A DNA stretch of 64,000 bases from Escherichia coli. GTDB taxonomy: Bacteria > Pseudomonadota > Gammaproteobacteria > Enterobacterales > Enterobacteriaceae. A program made the position numbers and the translations under genes. Below are positions 7,688 to 16,631 of the stretch, piece after piece. Below the pieces are notes generated by a model. The model worked only from the letters and a program-made list of their open reading frames with translations, did no database searches and was not told where the DNA came from. Each line of letters opens with the position of its first letter. The first letter of the stretch is position 1. The stretch lies in the NCBI RefSeq assembly GCF_003334315.1, contig NZ_QOWR01000008.1; one strand, written 5' to 3'.

Positions 7688-9579
<1,892 letters not shown>

Positions 9580-9666
9580 ATTCACCCCGAATGTTGTTAT
9601 GTCTGTTTGCAGTGTAGAGCCATTGTTTGTAAACACAAAAACAACTCCGCTACATCTTATTCTTAT

Positions 9667-10218
9667 TTAATATATATCAGAAGCAGGCAGGCTGGAGGAT
9701 TTCTGCACAAGTCCGGTACAGGTTTGGCGCTGATAGTGTTGATACTTCCGTAACGCGATGCGGTAATTGTTGGTGCTGGTGGTGGGCAGCCACGGGGCGA
9801 GGATTTCATCAAGGAAACCGTCCTGCAGCTGATCGAGGGAAATATTTTGCTCGTGTAGATGATTCCCCAAACGGCGCAGACGAACGACATATTCACGCAC
9901 CGTACCTGGGCTCATTTCAGTTTGCTCAAAAAGAAATTGCTTAAAGCCGATAATATCGAAAAAATCACTCTGCGTTTTGCAATGTAAATCACCGCAAAAT
10001 CGGCACAATGCCGCCCATGATTTTTGTTCCGTTTGCCAGCCCTTTTCATCAAGCAGCGTGTCCAGGCGGGAAATCTCGATTTTATTCACTATTTTGCCGT
10101 CGCGAACGAGGGTAATGCGATCGAGTAATTTACGGCAATGCGCGCAATGGGTCTGGCTGTGTTTAAAGTCTTTAAGATAGCGGCTTAATGGCCGTCTTTT
10201 CAGGTGCTGCACCATCAT
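9667..10218 (-). CDS. fliZ: Flagellar/curli regulatory protein FliZ
   Basis: Trimmed to MMVQHLKRRPLSRYLKDFKHSQTHCAHC... (183 aa); immediately downstream of fliA on the minus strand. Confidence 0.9.
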   Translation of the reverse strand: MMVQHLKRRPLSRYLKDFKHSQTHCAHCRKLLDRITLVRDGKIVNKIEISRLDTLLDEKGWQTEQKSWAALCRFCGDLHCKTQSDFFDIIGFKQFLFEQTEMSPGTVREYVVRLRRLGNHLHEQNISLDQLQDGFLDEILAPWLPTTSTNNYRIALRKYQHYQRQTCTGLVQKSSSLPASDIY

Positions 10219-10263
10219 TAAGAACTCCTGGTAGTCAAAGTTAAAGTGCGGCATTTACTGACG

Positions 10264-10983
10264 TTATAACTTACCCAGTTTAGTGCGTAACCGTTTAATA
10301 GCCTGGCTGTGTAACTGACTGACCCGCGATTCCCCGACCTCCAGCACTGCACCAATCTCTTTGAGATTCAGCTCTTCCTGGTAATAGAGGGTTAATACCA
10401 GTTTTTCGCGCTCCGGCAACGTTTCGATGGCTTCCATCACCCGCTGGCGCAGATTATTGTCCAGCAGTTGTTGTAGCGGGTTTTCTCGCTGATGATCATC
10501 AGTAACCAGTTCGATGCTATCGCCGTGCTCTTCGCGCCACTCATCGTAGGAGAAGAGCTGGCTGTTATTGGTGTCGAGCAACATTTGGCGATAATCGGCA
10601 ATATCGATCCCTAAACGTTCCGCTACCTCAGTTTCCGTGGCGTTGCGGCCAAGTTCCTGCTCCAGTTGCCCTATTGCCTGTGCCACTTCACGCGCGTTGC
10701 GTCGCACGCTGCGCGGCACCCAGTCACGGCTGCGAAGTTCATCCAGCATAGCGCCACGGATACGCTGCACTGCGTAAGTTGTAAATGCCGTTCCTTGTAG
10801 GGCGTCATAGCGTTCGACGGCATTAAGTAACCCAATGCCGCCCGCCTGTAGCAGATCGTCAAGTTCCACGCTCGCGGGCAGTCGAACCTGCAGGCGCAAT
10901 GCTTCGTGACGCACCAGCGGGACATAACGCTGCCACAGCGAGTGTTTATCCATTACACCTTCAGCGGTATAGAGTGAATTCAC
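10264..10983 (-). CDS. fliA: Flagellar sigma factor sigma-28 (FliA)
   Basis: 239-aa ORF with sigma-70 family regions 2 and 4 (...YDALQGTAFTTYAVQRIRGAMLDELR..., ...LNLKEIGAVLEVGESRVSQLHSQAIKRLR). Confidence 0.95.
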   Translation of the reverse strand: MNSLYTAEGVMDKHSLWQRYVPLVRHEALRLQVRLPASVELDDLLQAGGIGLLNAVERYDALQGTAFTTYAVQRIRGAMLDELRSRDWVPRSVRRNAREVAQAIGQLEQELGRNATETEVAERLGIDIADYRQMLLDTNNSQLFSYDEWREEHGDSIELVTDDHQRENPLQQLLDNNLRQRVMEAIETLPEREKLVLTLYYQEELNLKEIGAVLEVGESRVSQLHSQAIKRLRTKLGKL

Positions 10984-11100
10984 GATAAACAGCCCTGCGT
11001 TATATGAGTTATCGGCATGATTATCCGTTTCTGCAGGGTTTTTAATCGGACGATTAGTGGGTGAAATGAGGGGTTATTTGGGGGTTACCGGTAAATTGCG
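10984..11100 (-). promoter_or_regulatory. fliA promoter region (expected flagellar class II/III control); includes a GCCGATAA sigma-28 -10-like element at 11009-11016
   Basis: Minus-strand GCCGATAA immediately upstream of fliA; no TAAA at the canonical 15-nt spacing, so the full promoter architecture is not resolved from sequence. Confidence 0.35.
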
Positions 11101-11103
11101 GGC

Positions 11104-11129
11104 AGAAAAAACCCCGCCGTTGGCGGGGA
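11104..11129 (-). terminator. fliC rho-independent terminator
   Basis: Minus strand reads ccccgcc-aacg-gcgggg hairpin followed by UUUUUUCU; lies downstream of the fliC stop and REP elements. Confidence 0.55.
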
Positions 11130-11160
11130 AGCACGTTGCTGACAAATTACCATTCATGTT

Positions 11161-11259
11161 GCCGGATGCGGCGTAACGCCTTATCCGGCCTACAAAAATC
11201 TGCAAATTCAATAAATTGCAATTCACCTTGTAGGCCTGATAAGCACAGCGCACCAGGCA
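11161..11259. repeat. REP/BIME element pair in the fliC 3' UTR
   Basis: gccggatgcggcgtaacgccttatccggcctaca and inverted copy tgtaggcctgataagcacagcgcaccaggc; canonical REP consensus. Confidence 0.6.
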
Positions 11260-11301
11260 ATTTGGCGTTGCCGTCAGTCTCAGTTAATCAGGTTACGACG
11301 A

Positions 11302-12612
11302 TTAACCCTGCAGCAGAGACAGAACCTGCTGCGGTACCTGGTTGGCTTTTGCCAGTACGGAGTTACCGGCCTGCTGGATAATCTGCGCTTTCGACATGTT
11401 GGACACTTCGGTCGCATAGTCGGCGTCCTGAATACGGGACTGCGCTTCAGACAGGTTGGTAGTGGTGTTGTTCAGGTTGGTGACTGCGGAATCCAGACGG
11501 TTTTGCACCGCACCGAGGGAGGAGCGGAAAGTATCAACCTGTGCAATCGCTTTGTCTAAAAGTGCCAGTGGATCAGCAGAAGAAGCCCCTGAGAACTGTG
11601 CAGTCGGTTTTGCTGTTGATAATTCAACAACAACTTTATTATCTGTTGCTTTTGCCGCAGTATTATCATCAAGTGCCTTTGAAACCGTTGTAGCGTAGTT
11701 TTTACCTTGGAATGTTACATATCCCGCAGCCGAGCCGTCAGAGTCAGCGGCAACTTTAATCAGTTGATCTTTCTGAGTAGCCGCAGTCGTTAGTCCATTA
11801 TCGGTGTCTGTGTATTCGACATCGGCTTTATTCAACGTGACTTTGCCGTCTGTATGATTAATCGACGCGGAGTAGAAATCATTGCCGGATTGAACGACGA
11901 ACTGTGATGTAGCAGCCCCTTTCGCATCCAGAGTGTTGTGTAACGTCAGGCTAGAAACATCGACTGTTTTACCTGTCGCAGTAGTCAGATCTTTCGCAAC
12001 AGCAGTGAAATCAACACCAACAGGTTTTGCCCCGGCGGCACCGGTAATTTGAGTAATGGAATCACTAACGTTAAGTGACTGACCCGAAACGGAGAAACCG
12101 TTCAGTCCTAATGTAGAAGAGTCAATCTTCTGCAAATCAATGCTAATAGTCTGCCCATCATTCGCGCCAACCTGAATCTTCATCGAACCATCTTTCGCCA
12201 GCACATTCACGCCGTTGAACTGGGTCTGACCGGAAACGCGATCAATTTCATCCAGACGGGATTTGATTTCGTCCTGGATTGAAGACAGGTCAGAATCAGA
12301 GTTAGTCCCGGTCGTCGCCTGAACGGTCAACTCACGCACACGCTGCAAGTTGTTGTTGATTTCAGACAGCGCGCCTTCAGTGGTCTGCGCCAGAGAGATA
12401 CCGTCGTTGGCGTTACGTGCGGCCTGAGTCAGACCTTTGATGTTAGAGGTGAAGCGGTTAGCAATCGCCTGGCCCGCAGCGTCATCTTTAGCGCTGTTAA
12501 TGCGCAGACCAGAAGAGAGGCGCTCGATAGAAGTCGACAGCGCAGACTGGTTTTTGTTGATGTTGTTCTGAGTGATCAGCGAGAGGCTGTTGGTATTAAT
12601 GACTTGTGCCAT
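11302..12612 (-). CDS. fliC: Flagellin (436 aa; conserved N/C-terminal D0/D1, divergent central domain)
   Basis: Trimmed to MAQVINTNSLSLITQNNINKNQSALS...; C-terminus ...QVPQQVLSLLQG; central third is Thr/Ser/Ala-rich with no K-12-like sequence. Confidence 0.93.
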   Translation of the reverse strand: MAQVINTNSLSLITQNNINKNQSALSTSIERLSSGLRINSAKDDAAGQAIANRFTSNIKGLTQAARNANDGISLAQTTEGALSEINNNLQRVRELTVQATTGTNSDSDLSSIQDEIKSRLDEIDRVSGQTQFNGVNVLAKDGSMKIQVGANDGQTISIDLQKIDSSTLGLNGFSVSGQSLNVSDSITQITGAAGAKPVGVDFTAVAKDLTTATGKTVDVSSLTLHNTLDAKGAATSQFVVQSGNDFYSASINHTDGKVTLNKADVEYTDTDNGLTTAATQKDQLIKVAADSDGSAAGYVTFQGKNYATTVSKALDDNTAAKATDNKVVVELSTAKPTAQFSGASSADPLALLDKAIAQVDTFRSSLGAVQNRLDSAVTNLNNTTTNLSEAQSRIQDADYATEVSNMSKAQIIQQAGNSVLAKANQVPQQVLSLLQG

Positions 12613-12688
12613 GATTTCTTTTCCTGTTTTCAAGTCTACGGTTTAAGTATTGGGCTTCCACCCTTCGGCTTCGTCGCCGTCAACCCTG

Positions 12689-12715
12689 TTATCGTCTGGT
12701 CACTCACAACCTTTA
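12689..12715 (-). promoter_or_regulatory. sigma-28 (class III) promoter of fliC
   Basis: Minus strand reads TAAA-N15-GACGATAA, one mismatch from TAAA-N15-GCCGATAA. Confidence 0.6.
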
Positions 12716-12788
12716 GAATTTTTTTCTAGCGGTCGAAATACTCCCCTTCCTCGTTGCTGTTCGTGCCATTAAGGCAAAAAATAAATCG

Positions 12789-12815
12789 TAAACTTTACCC
12801 CGCTTACGCCGATAA
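12789..12815 (+). promoter_or_regulatory. sigma-28 (class III) promoter of fliDST
   Basis: Exact TAAA-N15-GCCGATAA about 45 nt upstream of the fliD start. Confidence 0.65.
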
Positions 12816-12859
12816 CCCCGGTATTCGTTCTATACACGTCGCATGATTAAGGAAACTAT

Positions 12860-14275
12860 ATGGCTAGTATTTCAACGCTTGGGGTTGGGTCGGGGCTGAA
12901 CTTAAGCAGCATCCTTGACAGTCTGGAGGCGGCAGAAAAATCTACCCTGACGCCGATATCAAAACAGCAAAGCTCTTACACCGCGAAACTGAGCGCCTAC
13001 GGGACGCTGAAAAGTGCACTAGAGAGTTTCCAGACAGCCAACACAGCACTGAATAAAGCCGATTTATTTACCGCCACCTCAACCACCAGCAGTTCATCGG
13101 CTTTCAGCGCCACCACCACGGGCAGCGCGATTGCTGGGAAATACACCATTAGCGTTAGCCAACTGGCGCAGGCACAGACGCTGACAACAAAAAATAGTCA
13201 AAAAGACAGTAAAGCCGCCATCGCCACCAGCGATAGCGTACTAACCATCCAGCAAGGTGGCGGTAAAGATCCGGTCACGATTGATATCAGCGCGGCTAAC
13301 TCGTCACTTTCCGGCATTCGCGATGCCATTAACAACGCCAAAGCTGGTGTCAGCGCCAGTATCATCCATGTGGGTAACGGCGAGTATCGTCTGTCCATCA
13401 CTGCTAACGATACGGGCAGCGATAACGCTATGAAACTTAGCGTCAGCGGCGACAGCGCCCTGGAAAGTTTTATGGGTTACAACGGAACGTCGGGTGATAG
13501 CAGCAATGGCATGATTGAAAGCGTCACTGCGCAAAACGCCAAACTGACAGTCAATAACGTTGAGATTGAAAACAGCAGTAACACTATCAGCGACGCGCTG
13601 GAAGATATCACCCTCAACCTGAATGACGTCACCACCGGTAATCAGACACTGACCATCAGTAAAGACACATCCAAAGCTGAAAATGCGGTTAAAACGTGGG
13701 TGGATGCCTATAACTCATTGCAGGATACGTTCAGCAGCTTAACCAAATACACCGCTGTCGATGCCGGAGCAGAGAGTCAGGACTCCAGCAATGGCGCATT
13801 ACTCGGTGACTCCACACTGCGTACCATCCAGACTCAGCTTAAAACCTTGCTCGCCAATACTCACAGCAGTTCAAACTATAAAACGCTGGCACAGATTGGC
13901 ATTACCAGCGATGCCAGTACCGGCAAGCTGGAAATCGCGACCGACAAACTGCAAACGGCGCTAAAAAAAGATGCCGCTGGCATCAGTGAAATGTTTATAG
14001 GTGACGGTAAAAGTACAGGGGTAACCACCGGCATTAGTAGCAACCTAACCAGTTGGCTCTCTTCCACCGGGATAATCCAGGCCGCAAAAGATGGCGTCAG
14101 CAAAACGCTGAATAATTTGACCGACCAGTACAACGCAGCCAGTGAGCGTATCGATACCTTAATGACGCGCTATAAAGCCCAGTTCACCCAATTAGATGTG
14201 TTAATGAACTCGCTTAACTCCACCAGTAGCTATCTGACACAGCAATTCGACACCTCAAATAGCAACTCGAAATAA
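12860..14275 (+). CDS. fliD: Flagellar filament capping protein (hook-associated protein 2)
   Basis: 471-aa ORF MASISTLGVGSGLNLSSILDSLEAAEK... with conserved termini. Confidence 0.93.
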   Translation: MASISTLGVGSGLNLSSILDSLEAAEKSTLTPISKQQSSYTAKLSAYGTLKSALESFQTANTALNKADLFTATSTTSSSSAFSATTTGSAIAGKYTISVSQLAQAQTLTTKNSQKDSKAAIATSDSVLTIQQGGGKDPVTIDISAANSSLSGIRDAINNAKAGVSASIIHVGNGEYRLSITANDTGSDNAMKLSVSGDSALESFMGYNGTSGDSSNGMIESVTAQNAKLTVNNVEIENSSNTISDALEDITLNLNDVTTGNQTLTISKDTSKAENAVKTWVDAYNSLQDTFSSLTKYTAVDAGAESQDSSNGALLGDSTLRTIQTQLKTLLANTHSSSNYKTLAQIGITSDASTGKLEIATDKLQTALKKDAAGISEMFIGDGKSTGVTTGISSNLTSWLSSTGIIQAAKDGVSKTLNNLTDQYNAASERIDTLMTRYKAQFTQLDVLMNSLNSTSSYLTQQFDTSNSNSK

Positions 14276-14290
14276 TCTTCAGGAGAAACT

Positions 14291-14701
14291 ATGTACGCGG
14301 CAAAAGGCACCCAGGCCTATGCACAAATTGGCGTCGAAAGCGCCGTAATGAGCGCCAGCCAACAGCAGCTGGTCACCATGCTATTTGATGGAGTGCTGAG
14401 CGCACTGGTTAGAGCGCGCCTGTTTATGCAGGACAACAATCAGCAAGGCAAAGGCGTCTCTTTATCAAAAGCGATCAACATCATTGAGAACGGGCTGCGG
14501 GTGAGTCTTGATGAAGAGAGCAAAGACGAATTAACCCAAAACTTGATTGCTCTTTATAGCTATATGGTCAGGCGTTTGCTGCAAGCCAATTTACGCAACG
14601 ATGTCTCCGCAGTCGAAGAAGTGGAAGCATTAATGCGCAATATTGCCGATGCCTGGAAAGAGTCTTTACTCTCCCCTTCTTTGATTCAGGACCCAGTCTG
14701 A
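14291..14701 (+). CDS. fliS: Flagellin-specific export chaperone
   Basis: 136-aa [37 protein letters not shown]... Confidence 0.93.
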
Positions 14702-15066
14702 TGAACGACGCACCGCATTTGTATTTCGCCTGGCAACAACTCGTCGAAAAAAGCCAGCTCATGTTACGCCTGGCAACGGAAGAACAATGGGACGAACTCA
14801 TCGCCAGCGAAATGGCGTATGTGAATGCGGTGCAGGAGATTGCACATCTGACTGAAGAGATTGACCCGTCCATCACGATGCAGGAGCAGCTCCGCCCGAT
14901 GCTGCGCCTGATTCTCGACAACGAAAGCAAGGTAAAGCAGTTATTACAGATTCGGATGGATGAACTGGCGAAACTGGTCGGTCAGTCATCGGTGCAAAAA
15001 TCGGTGTTAAGTGCCTATGGCGATCAGGGCGGCTTTGTGCTGGCTCCGCAGGATAACCTCTTTTGA
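14701..15066 (+). CDS. fliT: FliD export chaperone / anti-FlhDC factor
   Basis: 121-aa ORF; start overlaps fliS stop (translational coupling). Confidence 0.92.
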
Positions 15067-15143
15067 ATCTGAATGAGTCGATGGCTCGCGAATAATCCGA
15101 TTACGGCTACGCTTCTAATGTTCCCCTTGAATGGAGTCGAAGA

Positions 15144-16631
15144 ATGCGTAATCCCACGCTGTTACAATGTTTTCACTGGTATTACCCGGAAGGCGGTAAG
15201 CTCTGGCCTGAACTGGCCGAGCGCGCCGACGGTTTTAATGATATTGGTATCAATATGGTCTGGTTGCCGCCCGCCTATAAAGGCGCATCGGGCGGGTATT
15301 CGGTCGGCTACGACTCCTATGATTTATTTGATTTAGGCGAGTTTGATCAGAAAGGCAGCATCCCTACTAAATATGGCGTTAAAGCACAACTGCTGGCCGC
15401 CATTGACGCCCTGAAACGTAATGACATTGCGGTGCTGTTGGACGTGGTAGTCAACCACAAAATGGGCGCGGATGAAAAAGAAGCTATTCGCGTGCAGCGT
15501 GTAAATGCTGATGACCGTACGCAAATTGACGAAGAAATCATTGAGTGTGAAGGCTGGACGCGTTACACCTTCCCCGCCCGTGCCGGGCAATACTCGCAGT
15601 TTATCTGGGATTTCAAATGTTTTAGCGGTATCGACCATATCGAAAACCCTGATGAAGATGGCATATTTAAAATTGTTAACGACTACACCGGCGAAGGCTG
15701 GAACGATCAGGTTGATGATGAATTAGGTAATTTCGATTATCTGATGGGTGAGAATATCGATTTTCGCAATCATGCCGTGACGGAAGAGATTAAATACTGG
15801 GCGCGCTGGGTGATGGAACAAACGCAATGCGACGGTTTTCGTCTTGATGCGGTCAAACATATTCCGGCGTGGTTTTATAAAGAGTGGATCGAACACGTAC
15901 AGGAAGTTGCGCCAAAGCCGCTGTTTATTGTGGCAGAGTACTGGTCACATGAAGTCGATAAACTGCAAACGTATATTGATCAGGTGGAAGGCAAAACCAT
16001 GCTGTTCGATGCGCCGCTGCAGATGAAATTCCATGAAGCATCGCGCATGGGGCGCGACTACGACATGACGCAGATTTTCACGGGTACATTAGTGGAAGCC
16101 GATCCTTTCCACGCCGTAACCCTCGTTGCCAACCACGACACCCAACCGTTGCAAGCCCTCGAAGCCCCCGTCGAACCGTGGTTTAAACCGCTGGCGTATG
16201 CCTTAATTTTGTTGCGGGAAAATGGCGTTCCTTCGGTGTTCTATCCGGACCTCTACGGTGCGCATTACGAAGATGTCGGCGGTGACGGGCAAACCTATCC
16301 GATAGATATGCCAATAATCGAACAGCTTGATGAGTTAATTCTCGCCCGTCAGCGTTTCGCCCACGGTGTACAGACGTTATTTTTCGACCATCCGAACTGC
16401 ATTGCCTTTAGCCGCAGTGGCACTGACGAATATCCTGGCTGCGTGGTGGTCATGTCGAACGGGGATGATGGCGAAAAAACCATTCATCTGGGAGAGAATT
16501 ACGGCAATAAAACCTGGCGTGATTTTCTGGGGAACCGGCAAGAGAGCGTAGTGACCGACGAAAACGGCGAAGCAACCTTCTTTTGCAACGGCGGCAGCGT
16601 CAGCGTGTGGGTTATCGAAGAGGTGATTTAA
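15144..16631 (+). CDS. amyA: Cytoplasmic alpha-amylase (GH13)
   Basis: 495-aa ORF with GH13 motifs ([24 protein letters not shown]); no signal peptide. Confidence 0.93.

What the first reader, a model, noticed from the sequence alone, without database searches (positions are those of the whole stretch)
11700..12200. Flagellin with conserved termini but a short, divergent central (surface-exposed) domain
This FliC is 436 aa with a Thr/Ser/Ala-rich middle section (…VGVDFTAVAKDLTTATGKTVDVSSLTLHNTLDAKGAATSQFVVQSG…) unlike the K-12 flagellin, so the strain carries a different H antigen. Sequence alone places this as a non-K-12 E. coli lineage; the central domain determines serotype and immune recognition.
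Basis: seen in the sequence. Interest (0 to 1): 0.3.

Follow-up and report, generated by a model that had tools for sequence, protein, structure and literature searches.

The report
Ordinary E. coli H5 flagellin gene
This is the normal flagellar filament gene (fliC) of an E. coli strain whose surface-exposed middle part is the well-known H5 antigen type rather than the H48 type of laboratory K-12; it is common and already described.

Summary
Window 11302-12612 (- strand) encodes a 436-aa flagellin. Its ends are conserved against K-12 FliC: 94% identity over residues 1-175 and near-identity over the last ~90. The ~170-aa centre cannot be aligned with K-12 H48 at the DNA level.

The allele is H5. 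It differs by 2 residues from FliC of SE15 (published as O150:H5) and by 2 from MCJCHV-1 (O75:H5:K1). It is not H4, which is 349 aa, even though one matching RefSeq record sits under the taxon name 'O25b:H4-ST131'.

The central segment occurs at >=99% identity in 309 of 5426 complete E. coli genomes. The exact protein is on >=1000 contigs. The window is about 99.95% identical and collinear with a Vietnamese human isolate, and sister isolates with 100% identity over 25 kb are ST206.

The centre is "short" only relative to K-12. A model and a weak profile match suggest one D2-like beta domain with no D3.

The centre differs by 0.2-0.4% from phylogroup B2 H5 strains, against 1.4-2.6% in most flanking segments. 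That fits the known horizontal exchange of H determinants.

This is a known allele of a known gene. Interest is low.

The parts
11302..12612 (-). fliC coding sequence, 436 aa plus stop; H5-type flagellin
   Evidence: ORF. Pfam Flagellin_N residues 5-140 at 1.3e-46 and Flagellin_C residues 350-434 at 1e-31. NCBIfam FliC/FljB NF005953 at 624.7 bits against a cutoff of 619, and NF005294 at 515.6 against 387. 100% nucleotide identity to annotated FliC/FljB flagellin genes in many genomes.
12088..12612 (-). Conserved N-terminal part (residues 1-175; D0/D1 helices and beta-hairpin)
   Evidence: 94% amino-acid identity to K-12 FliC 1-175. 81-90% nucleotide identity to K-12. Helices in the AF2 model.
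11578..12087 (-). Variable, surface-exposed region (residues 176-345) carrying the H5 determinant
   Evidence: No DNA alignment to K-12. 1-2 nucleotide differences from SE15 and MCJCHV-1. The overlapping 481-nt query (window 11650-12130) is at >=99% identity in 309 of 5426 genomes. No PDB sequence match on its own. The AF2 model is beta-rich with pLDDT mostly 80-94 over residues 190-300.
11302..11577 (-). Conserved C-terminal part (residues 346-436; D1/D0 helices) and stop codon
   Evidence: Essentially identical to the K-12 C-terminus. Pfam Flagellin_C.
12689..12715 (-). Candidate FliA (sigma-28) promoter of fliC: TAAAGGTT, 11 nt, GACGATAA
   Evidence: Read from the sequence. Matches the class-3 flagellar promoter consensus TAAAGTTT-N11-GCCGATAA, which is established knowledge. 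This is a consensus match only, with no expression data.
11105..11301 (-). fliC 3' untranslated region: an inverted pair of REP elements (11180-11243) and an intrinsic terminator (stem 11112-11128, then a T run). It corresponds to the stretch annotated as sRNA FliX in K-12.
   Evidence: Terminator scan. Inverted repeat I3. K-12 annotation of fliX directly after fliC. 93-95% identity to K-12. No Rfam family reached threshold.
12789..12815 (+). Candidate sigma-28 promoter of the divergent fliDST operon: TAAACTTT, 11 nt, GCCGATAA
   Evidence: Read from the sequence. Consensus match only.
12860..14275 (+). fliD (filament cap, 471 aa), of an allele class different from K-12; part of the same block that diverges from K-12
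   Evidence: 80% amino-acid identity to K-12 FliD. 67-77% nucleotide identity. NCBIfam FliD NF005955 at 684.5 bits. Same class as in SE15 and MCJCHV-1, at 2.3% divergence. Found in 1326 of 5426 genomes.

Best explanation
The region is the central part of fliC, the gene for the flagellar filament subunit, in its usual chromosomal place: fliA on one side and, divergently, fliDST on the other.

**How it works.** The conserved N- and C-terminal segments fold into the D0/D1 helical core. That core polymerises into the filament, is exported through the flagellar type III system with the chaperone FliS, and carries the TLR5-recognised surface. These functions rest on established knowledge of flagellins, not on tests here. 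The ~170-residue middle is displayed on the filament surface and defines the H serotype.

**Which allele.** This is H5. The same type is carried by ST131 clade A (O16:H5), by ST1193 (O75:H5) and by the ST206-like lineage the window comes from.

**Structure (inferred).** The H5 centre is most likely a single D2-like beta domain. It lacks the D3 domain present in Salmonella FliC and probably in K-12 H48, which accounts for the 62-residue shorter protein.

**History (inferred).** The determinant has spread between E. coli phylogroups by homologous recombination, with breakpoints in or near the conserved ends of fliC.
For: **Flagellin identity and context.**

**H5 assignment.**
- 434/436 residues match FliC WP_000079768.1 of SE15. 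SE15 is called O150:H5 in PMC3203889.
- 434/436 residues match FliC of MCJCHV-1. MCJCHV-1 is serotype O75:H5:K1 in the title of PMC6256591.
- ST131 clade A is typed O16:H5 in silico (PMC5343136).
- Only 1-2 amino-acid changes fall in the variable region: K312T in both strains, plus A195T in MCJCHV-1.

**Not H48.**

**Not H4.** H4 flagellin is 349 aa (PMC548302).

**Frequency.** 309 of 5426 complete genomes, always chromosomal and single-copy. The exact protein is on >=1000 contigs.

**D3-less reading.**
- AF2 model with mean pLDDT 76, mostly 80-94 across residues 190-300, showing one helix and about ten strands.
- The best Foldseek PDB hit is 9iwq, Salmonella FliC with residues 204-292 deleted. 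That same chain aligns in one stretch over residues 2-434.
- A profile of the centre matches Salmonella FljB residues 290-384 with E=0.016.
- H5 residues 190-306 align to K-12 residues 278-378 at 32% identity, leaving K-12 residues 176-277 without a counterpart.

**Recombination.** The centre differs by 0.20% from SE15 and 0.39% from MCJCHV-1, against 1.4-2.6% in most flanking segments.
Against: - No H5 type-strain or SerotypeFinder/EcOH reference sequence was available, so the H type rests on strains labelled H5 in the literature. SE15's published O group was later questioned (PMC5343136). That paper says the expected H alleles were found in all 20 reference genomes that had a reported H type, but I could not confirm SE15 was among the 20 because Table S2 is not held.
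- H5 and H56 are a related pair (PMC7018530), and H56 was not compared directly.
- The low divergence of the centre rests on small counts: 1-2 differences in 510 nt. fliA is also low, at 0.6-0.8%.
- Expression and motility of this strain were not and cannot be tested here.
Confidence: 0.93

Rival explanations
1. The allele encodes H56, the serotype whose flagellin is closest to H5, rather than H5.
For: Hu & Reeves state that H5/H56 are one of the few similar pairs, with only limited segments of poor alignment (PMC7018530). No H56 reference was compared here. A metagenomic fragment, P0016, is 79% identical to the centre, so close relatives do exist.
Against: The variable region differs by only 1-2 residues from flagellins of two independent strains published as H5. 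All 309 genomes matching the central segment are >=99% identical, with no second identity band.
Confidence: 0.04
2. The allele encodes H4, as the organism name 'O25b:H4-ST131' on some matching RefSeq records would suggest.
For: Records NZ_OX637959.1 and NZ_CP103742.1 carry that organism name and match the central segment at 99.8%.
Against: All sequenced H4 flagellins are 349 aa (PMC548302); this one is 436 aa. The FliC in NZ_OX637959.1 is the same protein accession as in SE15. The name is an NCBI taxon label for ST131. ST131 clade A is O16:H5.
Confidence: 0.01
3. The gene is a new or mosaic H type, or a decaying, non-functional flagellin.
For: One residue (K312) differs from both H5 comparison strains.
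Against: The reading frame is intact and both terminal domains score fully. The identical protein occurs on >=1000 contigs, and the identical gene is in many complete genomes from humans, poultry, pigs and frogs. fliA, fliD, fliS and fliT are intact alongside.
Confidence: 0.02

Closest known systems
E. coli H5 flagellin (FliC of SE15, WP_000079768.1; FliC of ST1193 strain MCJCHV-1, WP_001538885.1)
   Same: Same length (436 aa), same locus, 434/436 identical residues, and the same fliD allele class next door.
   Different: K312 instead of T312 against both strains. A421 instead of S421 against SE15. A195 instead of T195 against MCJCHV-1. 12-15 nucleotide differences overall. The chromosomal background is different: an ST206-like lineage rather than phylogroup B2.
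E. coli K-12 H48 flagellin (FliC b1923, 498 aa)
   Same: Same locus and orientation. 94% identity over residues 1-175 and a near-identical C-terminus. Weak similarity (32% over 100 columns) in one sub-region of the centre.
   Different: 62 residues longer. The central DNA does not align. K-12 residues 176-277 have no counterpart here. The neighbouring fliD is only 80% identical in protein.
Salmonella Typhimurium FliC with the D3 domain deleted (PDB 9iwq, delta 204-292)
   Same: Best Foldseek match of the model. The sequence aligns in a single stretch over the whole protein, which suggests the same D0-D1-D2 layout without D3.
   Different: It is an engineered deletion in another species. The outer-domain sequence similarity is barely detectable: the profile hit to the D2 part of the related phase-2 flagellin FljB has E=0.016.
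E. coli H4 flagellin (349 aa)
   Same: A short E. coli flagellin with conserved ends. It is found in the sister clades of ST131 (PMC548302; PMC5343136).
   Different: 87 residues shorter and a different central sequence type. I did not align it directly because no H4 sequence was fetched.

Membership tests
FliC/FljB flagellin (bacterial flagellar filament subunit) | N-terminal helical region (Pfam PF00669) | tested here: met
   Residues 5-140, E=1.3e-46.
FliC/FljB flagellin (bacterial flagellar filament subunit) | C-terminal helical region (Pfam PF00700) | tested here: met
   Residues 350-434, E=1e-31.
FliC/FljB flagellin (bacterial flagellar filament subunit) | Score above the curated NCBIfam cut-off for FliC/FljB | tested here: met
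   NF005953 at 624.7 bits against 619. NF005294 at 515.6 bits against 387.
FliC/FljB flagellin (bacterial flagellar filament subunit) | Position in the enterobacterial fli region, between fliA and the divergent fliDST | tested here: met
   ORFs. The same order is annotated in K-12, SE15, MCJCHV-1 and 2017.04.03CC.
FliC/FljB flagellin (bacterial flagellar filament subunit) | Class-3 (sigma-28) promoter upstream | tested here: inconclusive
   TAAAGGTT-N11-GACGATAA at 12715-12689 was read from the sequence. It matches the consensus, but no transcription data exist and the scanning tool covers sigma-70 only.
FliC/FljB flagellin (bacterial flagellar filament subunit) | Polymerises into a filament and confers motility | not testable with these tools
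   Needs a motility assay or electron microscopy.
E. coli H5 antigen type | Variable region near-identical to the flagellin of strains typed H5 | tested here: met
   1-2 residue differences in residues 176-345 against SE15 (O150:H5, PMC3203889) and MCJCHV-1 (O75:H5:K1, PMC6256591).
E. coli H5 antigen type | Best match to the fliC-H5 reference allele of the typing databases (SerotypeFinder, EcOH), ahead of fliC-H56 | not testable with these tools
   No reference set is held. Wang et al. 2003 is not held. The supplements of PMC5343136 are not held.
E. coli H5 antigen type | Agglutination or immobilisation by H5 antiserum | not testable with these tools
   Serology is required.
E. coli H48 antigen type (K-12) | Central region matching K-12 fliC | tested here: not met
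   No DNA alignment between window 11529 and 12122. 33-45% column identity in a forced alignment. Only 32% protein identity over 100 columns.
E. coli H4 antigen type | Flagellin of 349 aa with the H4 central sequence | tested here: not met
   This protein is 436 aa. All six sequenced H4 flagellins are 349 aa (PMC548302).

The most novel reading that the evidence does not exclude
The block that diverges from K-12 is not just the fliC centre. It runs from the fliC 3' UTR through all of fliD (window about 11000-14290). The fliD class found here is shared by 24% of E. coli genomes, far more than carry H5.

The most novel reading not excluded is that discrete FliD cap classes are functionally matched to groups of flagellin outer-domain architectures, for example the D3-less flagellins. 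Under that reading fliC and fliD would be exchanged and selected as a compatible cassette, and fliD would not be diverging by hitch-hiking alone.
Probability: 0.1. Interest if true: 0.4.

Novelty: already known. Interest (0 to 1): 0.08.

Why it matters
It matters only as annotation. It lets the strain be typed as H5 in silico and places the window in a non-K-12, ST206-like commensal or livestock-associated background.

H5 flagellin is of some medical interest because it is carried by the ExPEC clones ST1193 (O75:H5) and ST131 clade A (O16:H5). Nothing about this copy is unusual.

Organism names on database records can mislead H-type inference. A record under the name 'O25b:H4-ST131' carries an H5 gene.

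Tried and rejected
- **Wang et al. 2003 (PMC154406).** This is the reference paper on E. coli fliC diversity. It is not held.
- **Supplements of the EcOH paper.** Not held. No direct comparison with H5 or H56 reference alleles was therefore possible.
- **Cluster look-up.** It gave only generic names such as 'FliC/FljB family flagellin', with no H type.
- **Word-indexed protein search with the centre.** It returned only nine mostly fragmentary hits and missed the main cluster. The exhaustive search found just 29 cluster representatives, many of them frameshifted metagenome fragments. I trimmed these before use.
- **AF2 without an alignment.** Unusable, at pLDDT 47.
- **Rfam.** No family found in 8000-16000, so the FliX-like 3' UTR could not be confirmed as an RNA family member.
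- **Sigma-70 promoter scan.** No enrichment over shuffles, and irrelevant to a sigma-28 gene.
- **H4.** Considered and rejected on length.
- **Strain names matching the window.** The literature search gave an ST (ST206 for 2017.01.04CC and 2018-01-1CC; ST940, phylogroup B1, for the 99.9% match STO_Bone1B) but no published serotype.
- **Repeat scan.** No internal direct repeats in the gene.

Full report
**1. What is there**

The finding's coordinates (11700-12200) fall inside a - strand ORF, 11302..12633. Counting from the ATG at 12612 the product is 436 aa and begins MAQVINTNSL. This is the same start as K-12 FliC and the same 1311-nt gene that RefSeq annotates as 'FliC/FljB family flagellin' in identical genomes.

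The protein has both flagellin terminal domains:
- Pfam Flagellin_N covers residues 5-140 (1.3e-46) and Flagellin_C covers residues 350-434 (1e-31).
- It passes the curated NCBIfam cut-offs for FliC/FljB.

The neighbourhood is the canonical one:
- On the - strand: tcyJ, fliZ and fliA (10264-10983), then fliC.
- Divergently on the + strand: fliD (12860-14275), fliS, fliT and amyA.

Upstream of fliC there is a good match to the sigma-28 class-3 promoter consensus: TAAAGGTT-N11-GACGATAA at 12715-12689. The fliD side has a matching element, TAAACTTT-N11-GCCGATAA, at 12789-12815. Both were read and are consensus matches only.

Downstream of fliC lie an inverted pair of REP elements (11180-11243) and an intrinsic terminator (stem 11112-11128). 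This stretch corresponds to the sRNA FliX annotated in K-12. No Rfam family reached threshold there.

**2. Comparison with K-12**

Against K-12 FliC (498 aa), residues 1-175 are 94% identical and the last ~90 residues are essentially identical. The DNA between window 11529 and 12122 does not align with K-12 at all. A forced alignment gives 33-45% column identity.

A sensitive protein alignment finds only one weakly similar sub-region:
- H5 residues 190-306 align to K-12 residues 278-378 at 32% identity over 100 columns.
- The score is 93, against a shuffle mean of 60.5 and sd of 9.3, and one of 300 shuffles reached it.
- K-12 residues 176-277 have no counterpart in this protein.

The Ala/Thr/Ser richness of the centre (38.8%) is matched by K-12's centre (38.4%). 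It is a generic property of flagellin variable regions and does not distinguish this allele.

**3. Which H type**

The central 481 nt are found at >=99% identity in 309 of 5426 complete E. coli genomes. Every match is chromosomal and single-copy, and there is no intermediate identity band.

Two matching records carry the organism name 'O25b:H4-ST131'. H4 flagellin is 349 aa in all six strains sequenced by Beutin et al. (PMC548302), so this 436-aa protein is not H4. One of those records, NZ_OX637959.1, encodes FliC WP_000079768.1. That is the same protein as in strain SE15.

The evidence for H5:
- SE15 is described as 'E. coli O150:H5 strain SE15' (PMC3203889).
- ST131 clade A is typed O16:H5 in silico (PMC5343136).
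- Strain MCJCHV-1, published as serotype O75:H5:K1 (PMC6256591), also carries a 1311-nt fliC.
- The window protein differs from SE15 by K312T and A421S, and from MCJCHV-1 by A195T and K312T.

Two independent H5-labelled strains with only 1-2 changes in the variable region make H5 the clear assignment.

The caveat is H56. Hu & Reeves list H56 as a near relative of H5, with limited segments of poor alignment (PMC7018530). I could not obtain H5 or H56 reference alleles. An H56 identity is unlikely but was not formally excluded.

**4. Strain background**

Window 1-25000 is 100% identical to about 28 complete genomes with small chromosomes (4.4-4.9 Mb). They come from humans, poultry, pigs, frogs and water. 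The whole window is collinear and 99.93-99.96% identical to NZ_AP025205.2, strain 2017.04.03CC from a healthy resident in Viet Nam. The sister isolates 2017.01.04CC and 2018-01-1CC are ST206 (PMC7056805). A 99.9% match, STO_Bone1B, is ST940 and phylogroup B1. The exact protein is seen on at least 1000 contigs. The allele is common.

**5. Structure of the centre (inference)**

- On its own, the 170-residue centre has no significant sequence match in the PDB.
- It has only 29 cluster representatives among 1.84 billion proteins.
- With an alignment of those relatives, AF2 gives a usable model. Mean pLDDT is 76, and mostly 80-94 over residues 190-300. The centre shows one helix and about ten strands.
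- Foldseek's best PDB hit is 9iwq, Salmonella FliC with residues 204-292 deleted. By my knowledge of Salmonella FliC domain boundaries (D3 is about 190-283) this is a D3-deleted flagellin. The same chain is the only high-ranking PDB flagellin (rank 6 by E-value) that aligns to this protein in one continuous stretch.
- A profile of the centre weakly matches Salmonella FljB residues 290-384 (E=0.016). By the same domain boundaries that stretch lies in the C-proximal part of D2.

**6. Evolutionary pattern**

The window was compared with the two phylogroup B2 H5 strains segment by segment.

| Segment | Divergence from SE15 | Divergence from MCJCHV-1 |
|---|---|---|
| fliC centre (510 nt) | 0.20% | 0.39% |
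| fliC 3' end | 2.90% | 1.09% |
| fliC 5' end | 1.14% | 1.33% |
| fliD | 2.26% | 2.33% |
| amyA | 2.62% | 2.28% |
| tcyJ side | 1.59% | 1.37% |
| fliA | 0.56% | 0.83% |

At about 2% divergence roughly 10 differences would be expected in 510 nt. One or two were seen. This fits the long-known horizontal exchange of the H-determining segment between lineages. The counts are small, and fliA is also low.

Relative to K-12, the divergent block is wider than the fliC centre:
- It begins in the fliC 3' UTR at about window 11000.
- It covers all of fliC, the fliC-fliD spacer (about 65% identity) and all of fliD (67-77% nucleotide identity, 80% amino-acid identity).
- It returns to about 98% at fliS, at about window 14290.

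This fliD class occurs in 1326 of 5426 genomes. It is therefore shared with H types other than H5.

**7. Verdict**

The feature is an ordinary, already described allele (H5) of a textbook gene. Interest is low. The only mildly open point is whether discrete fliD classes are functionally coupled to flagellin types.

Noticed in passing
window 12860-14275 (fliD), with the divergent block spanning about 11000-14290: fliD belongs to an allele class very different from K-12: 80% amino-acid and 67-77% nucleotide identity. The divergence from K-12 runs continuously from the fliC 3' UTR to the fliD stop and returns to about 98% at fliS. This fliD class is in 1326 of 5426 complete genomes, far more than the 309 carrying H5.
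   Followed up: partly
window 11578-12087 compared with L004 (SE15) and L005 (MCJCHV-1): The H5-determining segment differs by only 0.2-0.4% from two phylogroup B2 strains, while most flanking segments differ by 1.4-2.6%. This is a signature of horizontal exchange of the central fliC segment.
   Followed up: yes
L002 (NZ_OX637959.1, 2519-3829): A RefSeq chromosome under the organism name 'Escherichia coli O25b:H4-ST131' carries an H5-type fliC identical in protein to SE15. It is probably an ST131 clade A (O16:H5) isolate, so the taxon name misstates its H type.
   Followed up: partly
L005 35389-36108 (MCJCHV-1, ST1193): fliA, the sigma-28 gene needed to transcribe fliC, is annotated as a pseudogene with an internal stop in this O75:H5:K1 meningitis strain. 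Its H5 flagellin may therefore not be expressed.
   Followed up: no
window 11105-11301 (- strand): The fliC 3' UTR holds an inverted REP pair (11180-11243) and a strong terminator (11112-11128). It corresponds to the K-12 sRNA FliX and is 93-95% identical to K-12. No Rfam family matched.
   Followed up: partly
window 41219-42463 (+ strand): An intact porin gene, annotated 'porin OmpC' in the near-identical genome, sits between hchA and drpB. From memory, K-12 has the yedS pseudogene at this position; I did not check that here.
   Followed up: no
window 52083-59234 (+ strand) and the adjacent tRNA-Asn: A full-length gene for the inverse autotransporter adhesin YeeJ (about 2360 aa) lies next to a tRNA-Asn gene. 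The window shows no island genes (neither yersiniabactin/HPI genes nor prophage genes) between that tRNA-Asn and yeeJ, whereas SE15 carries the yersiniabactin genes in the corresponding region.
   Followed up: no
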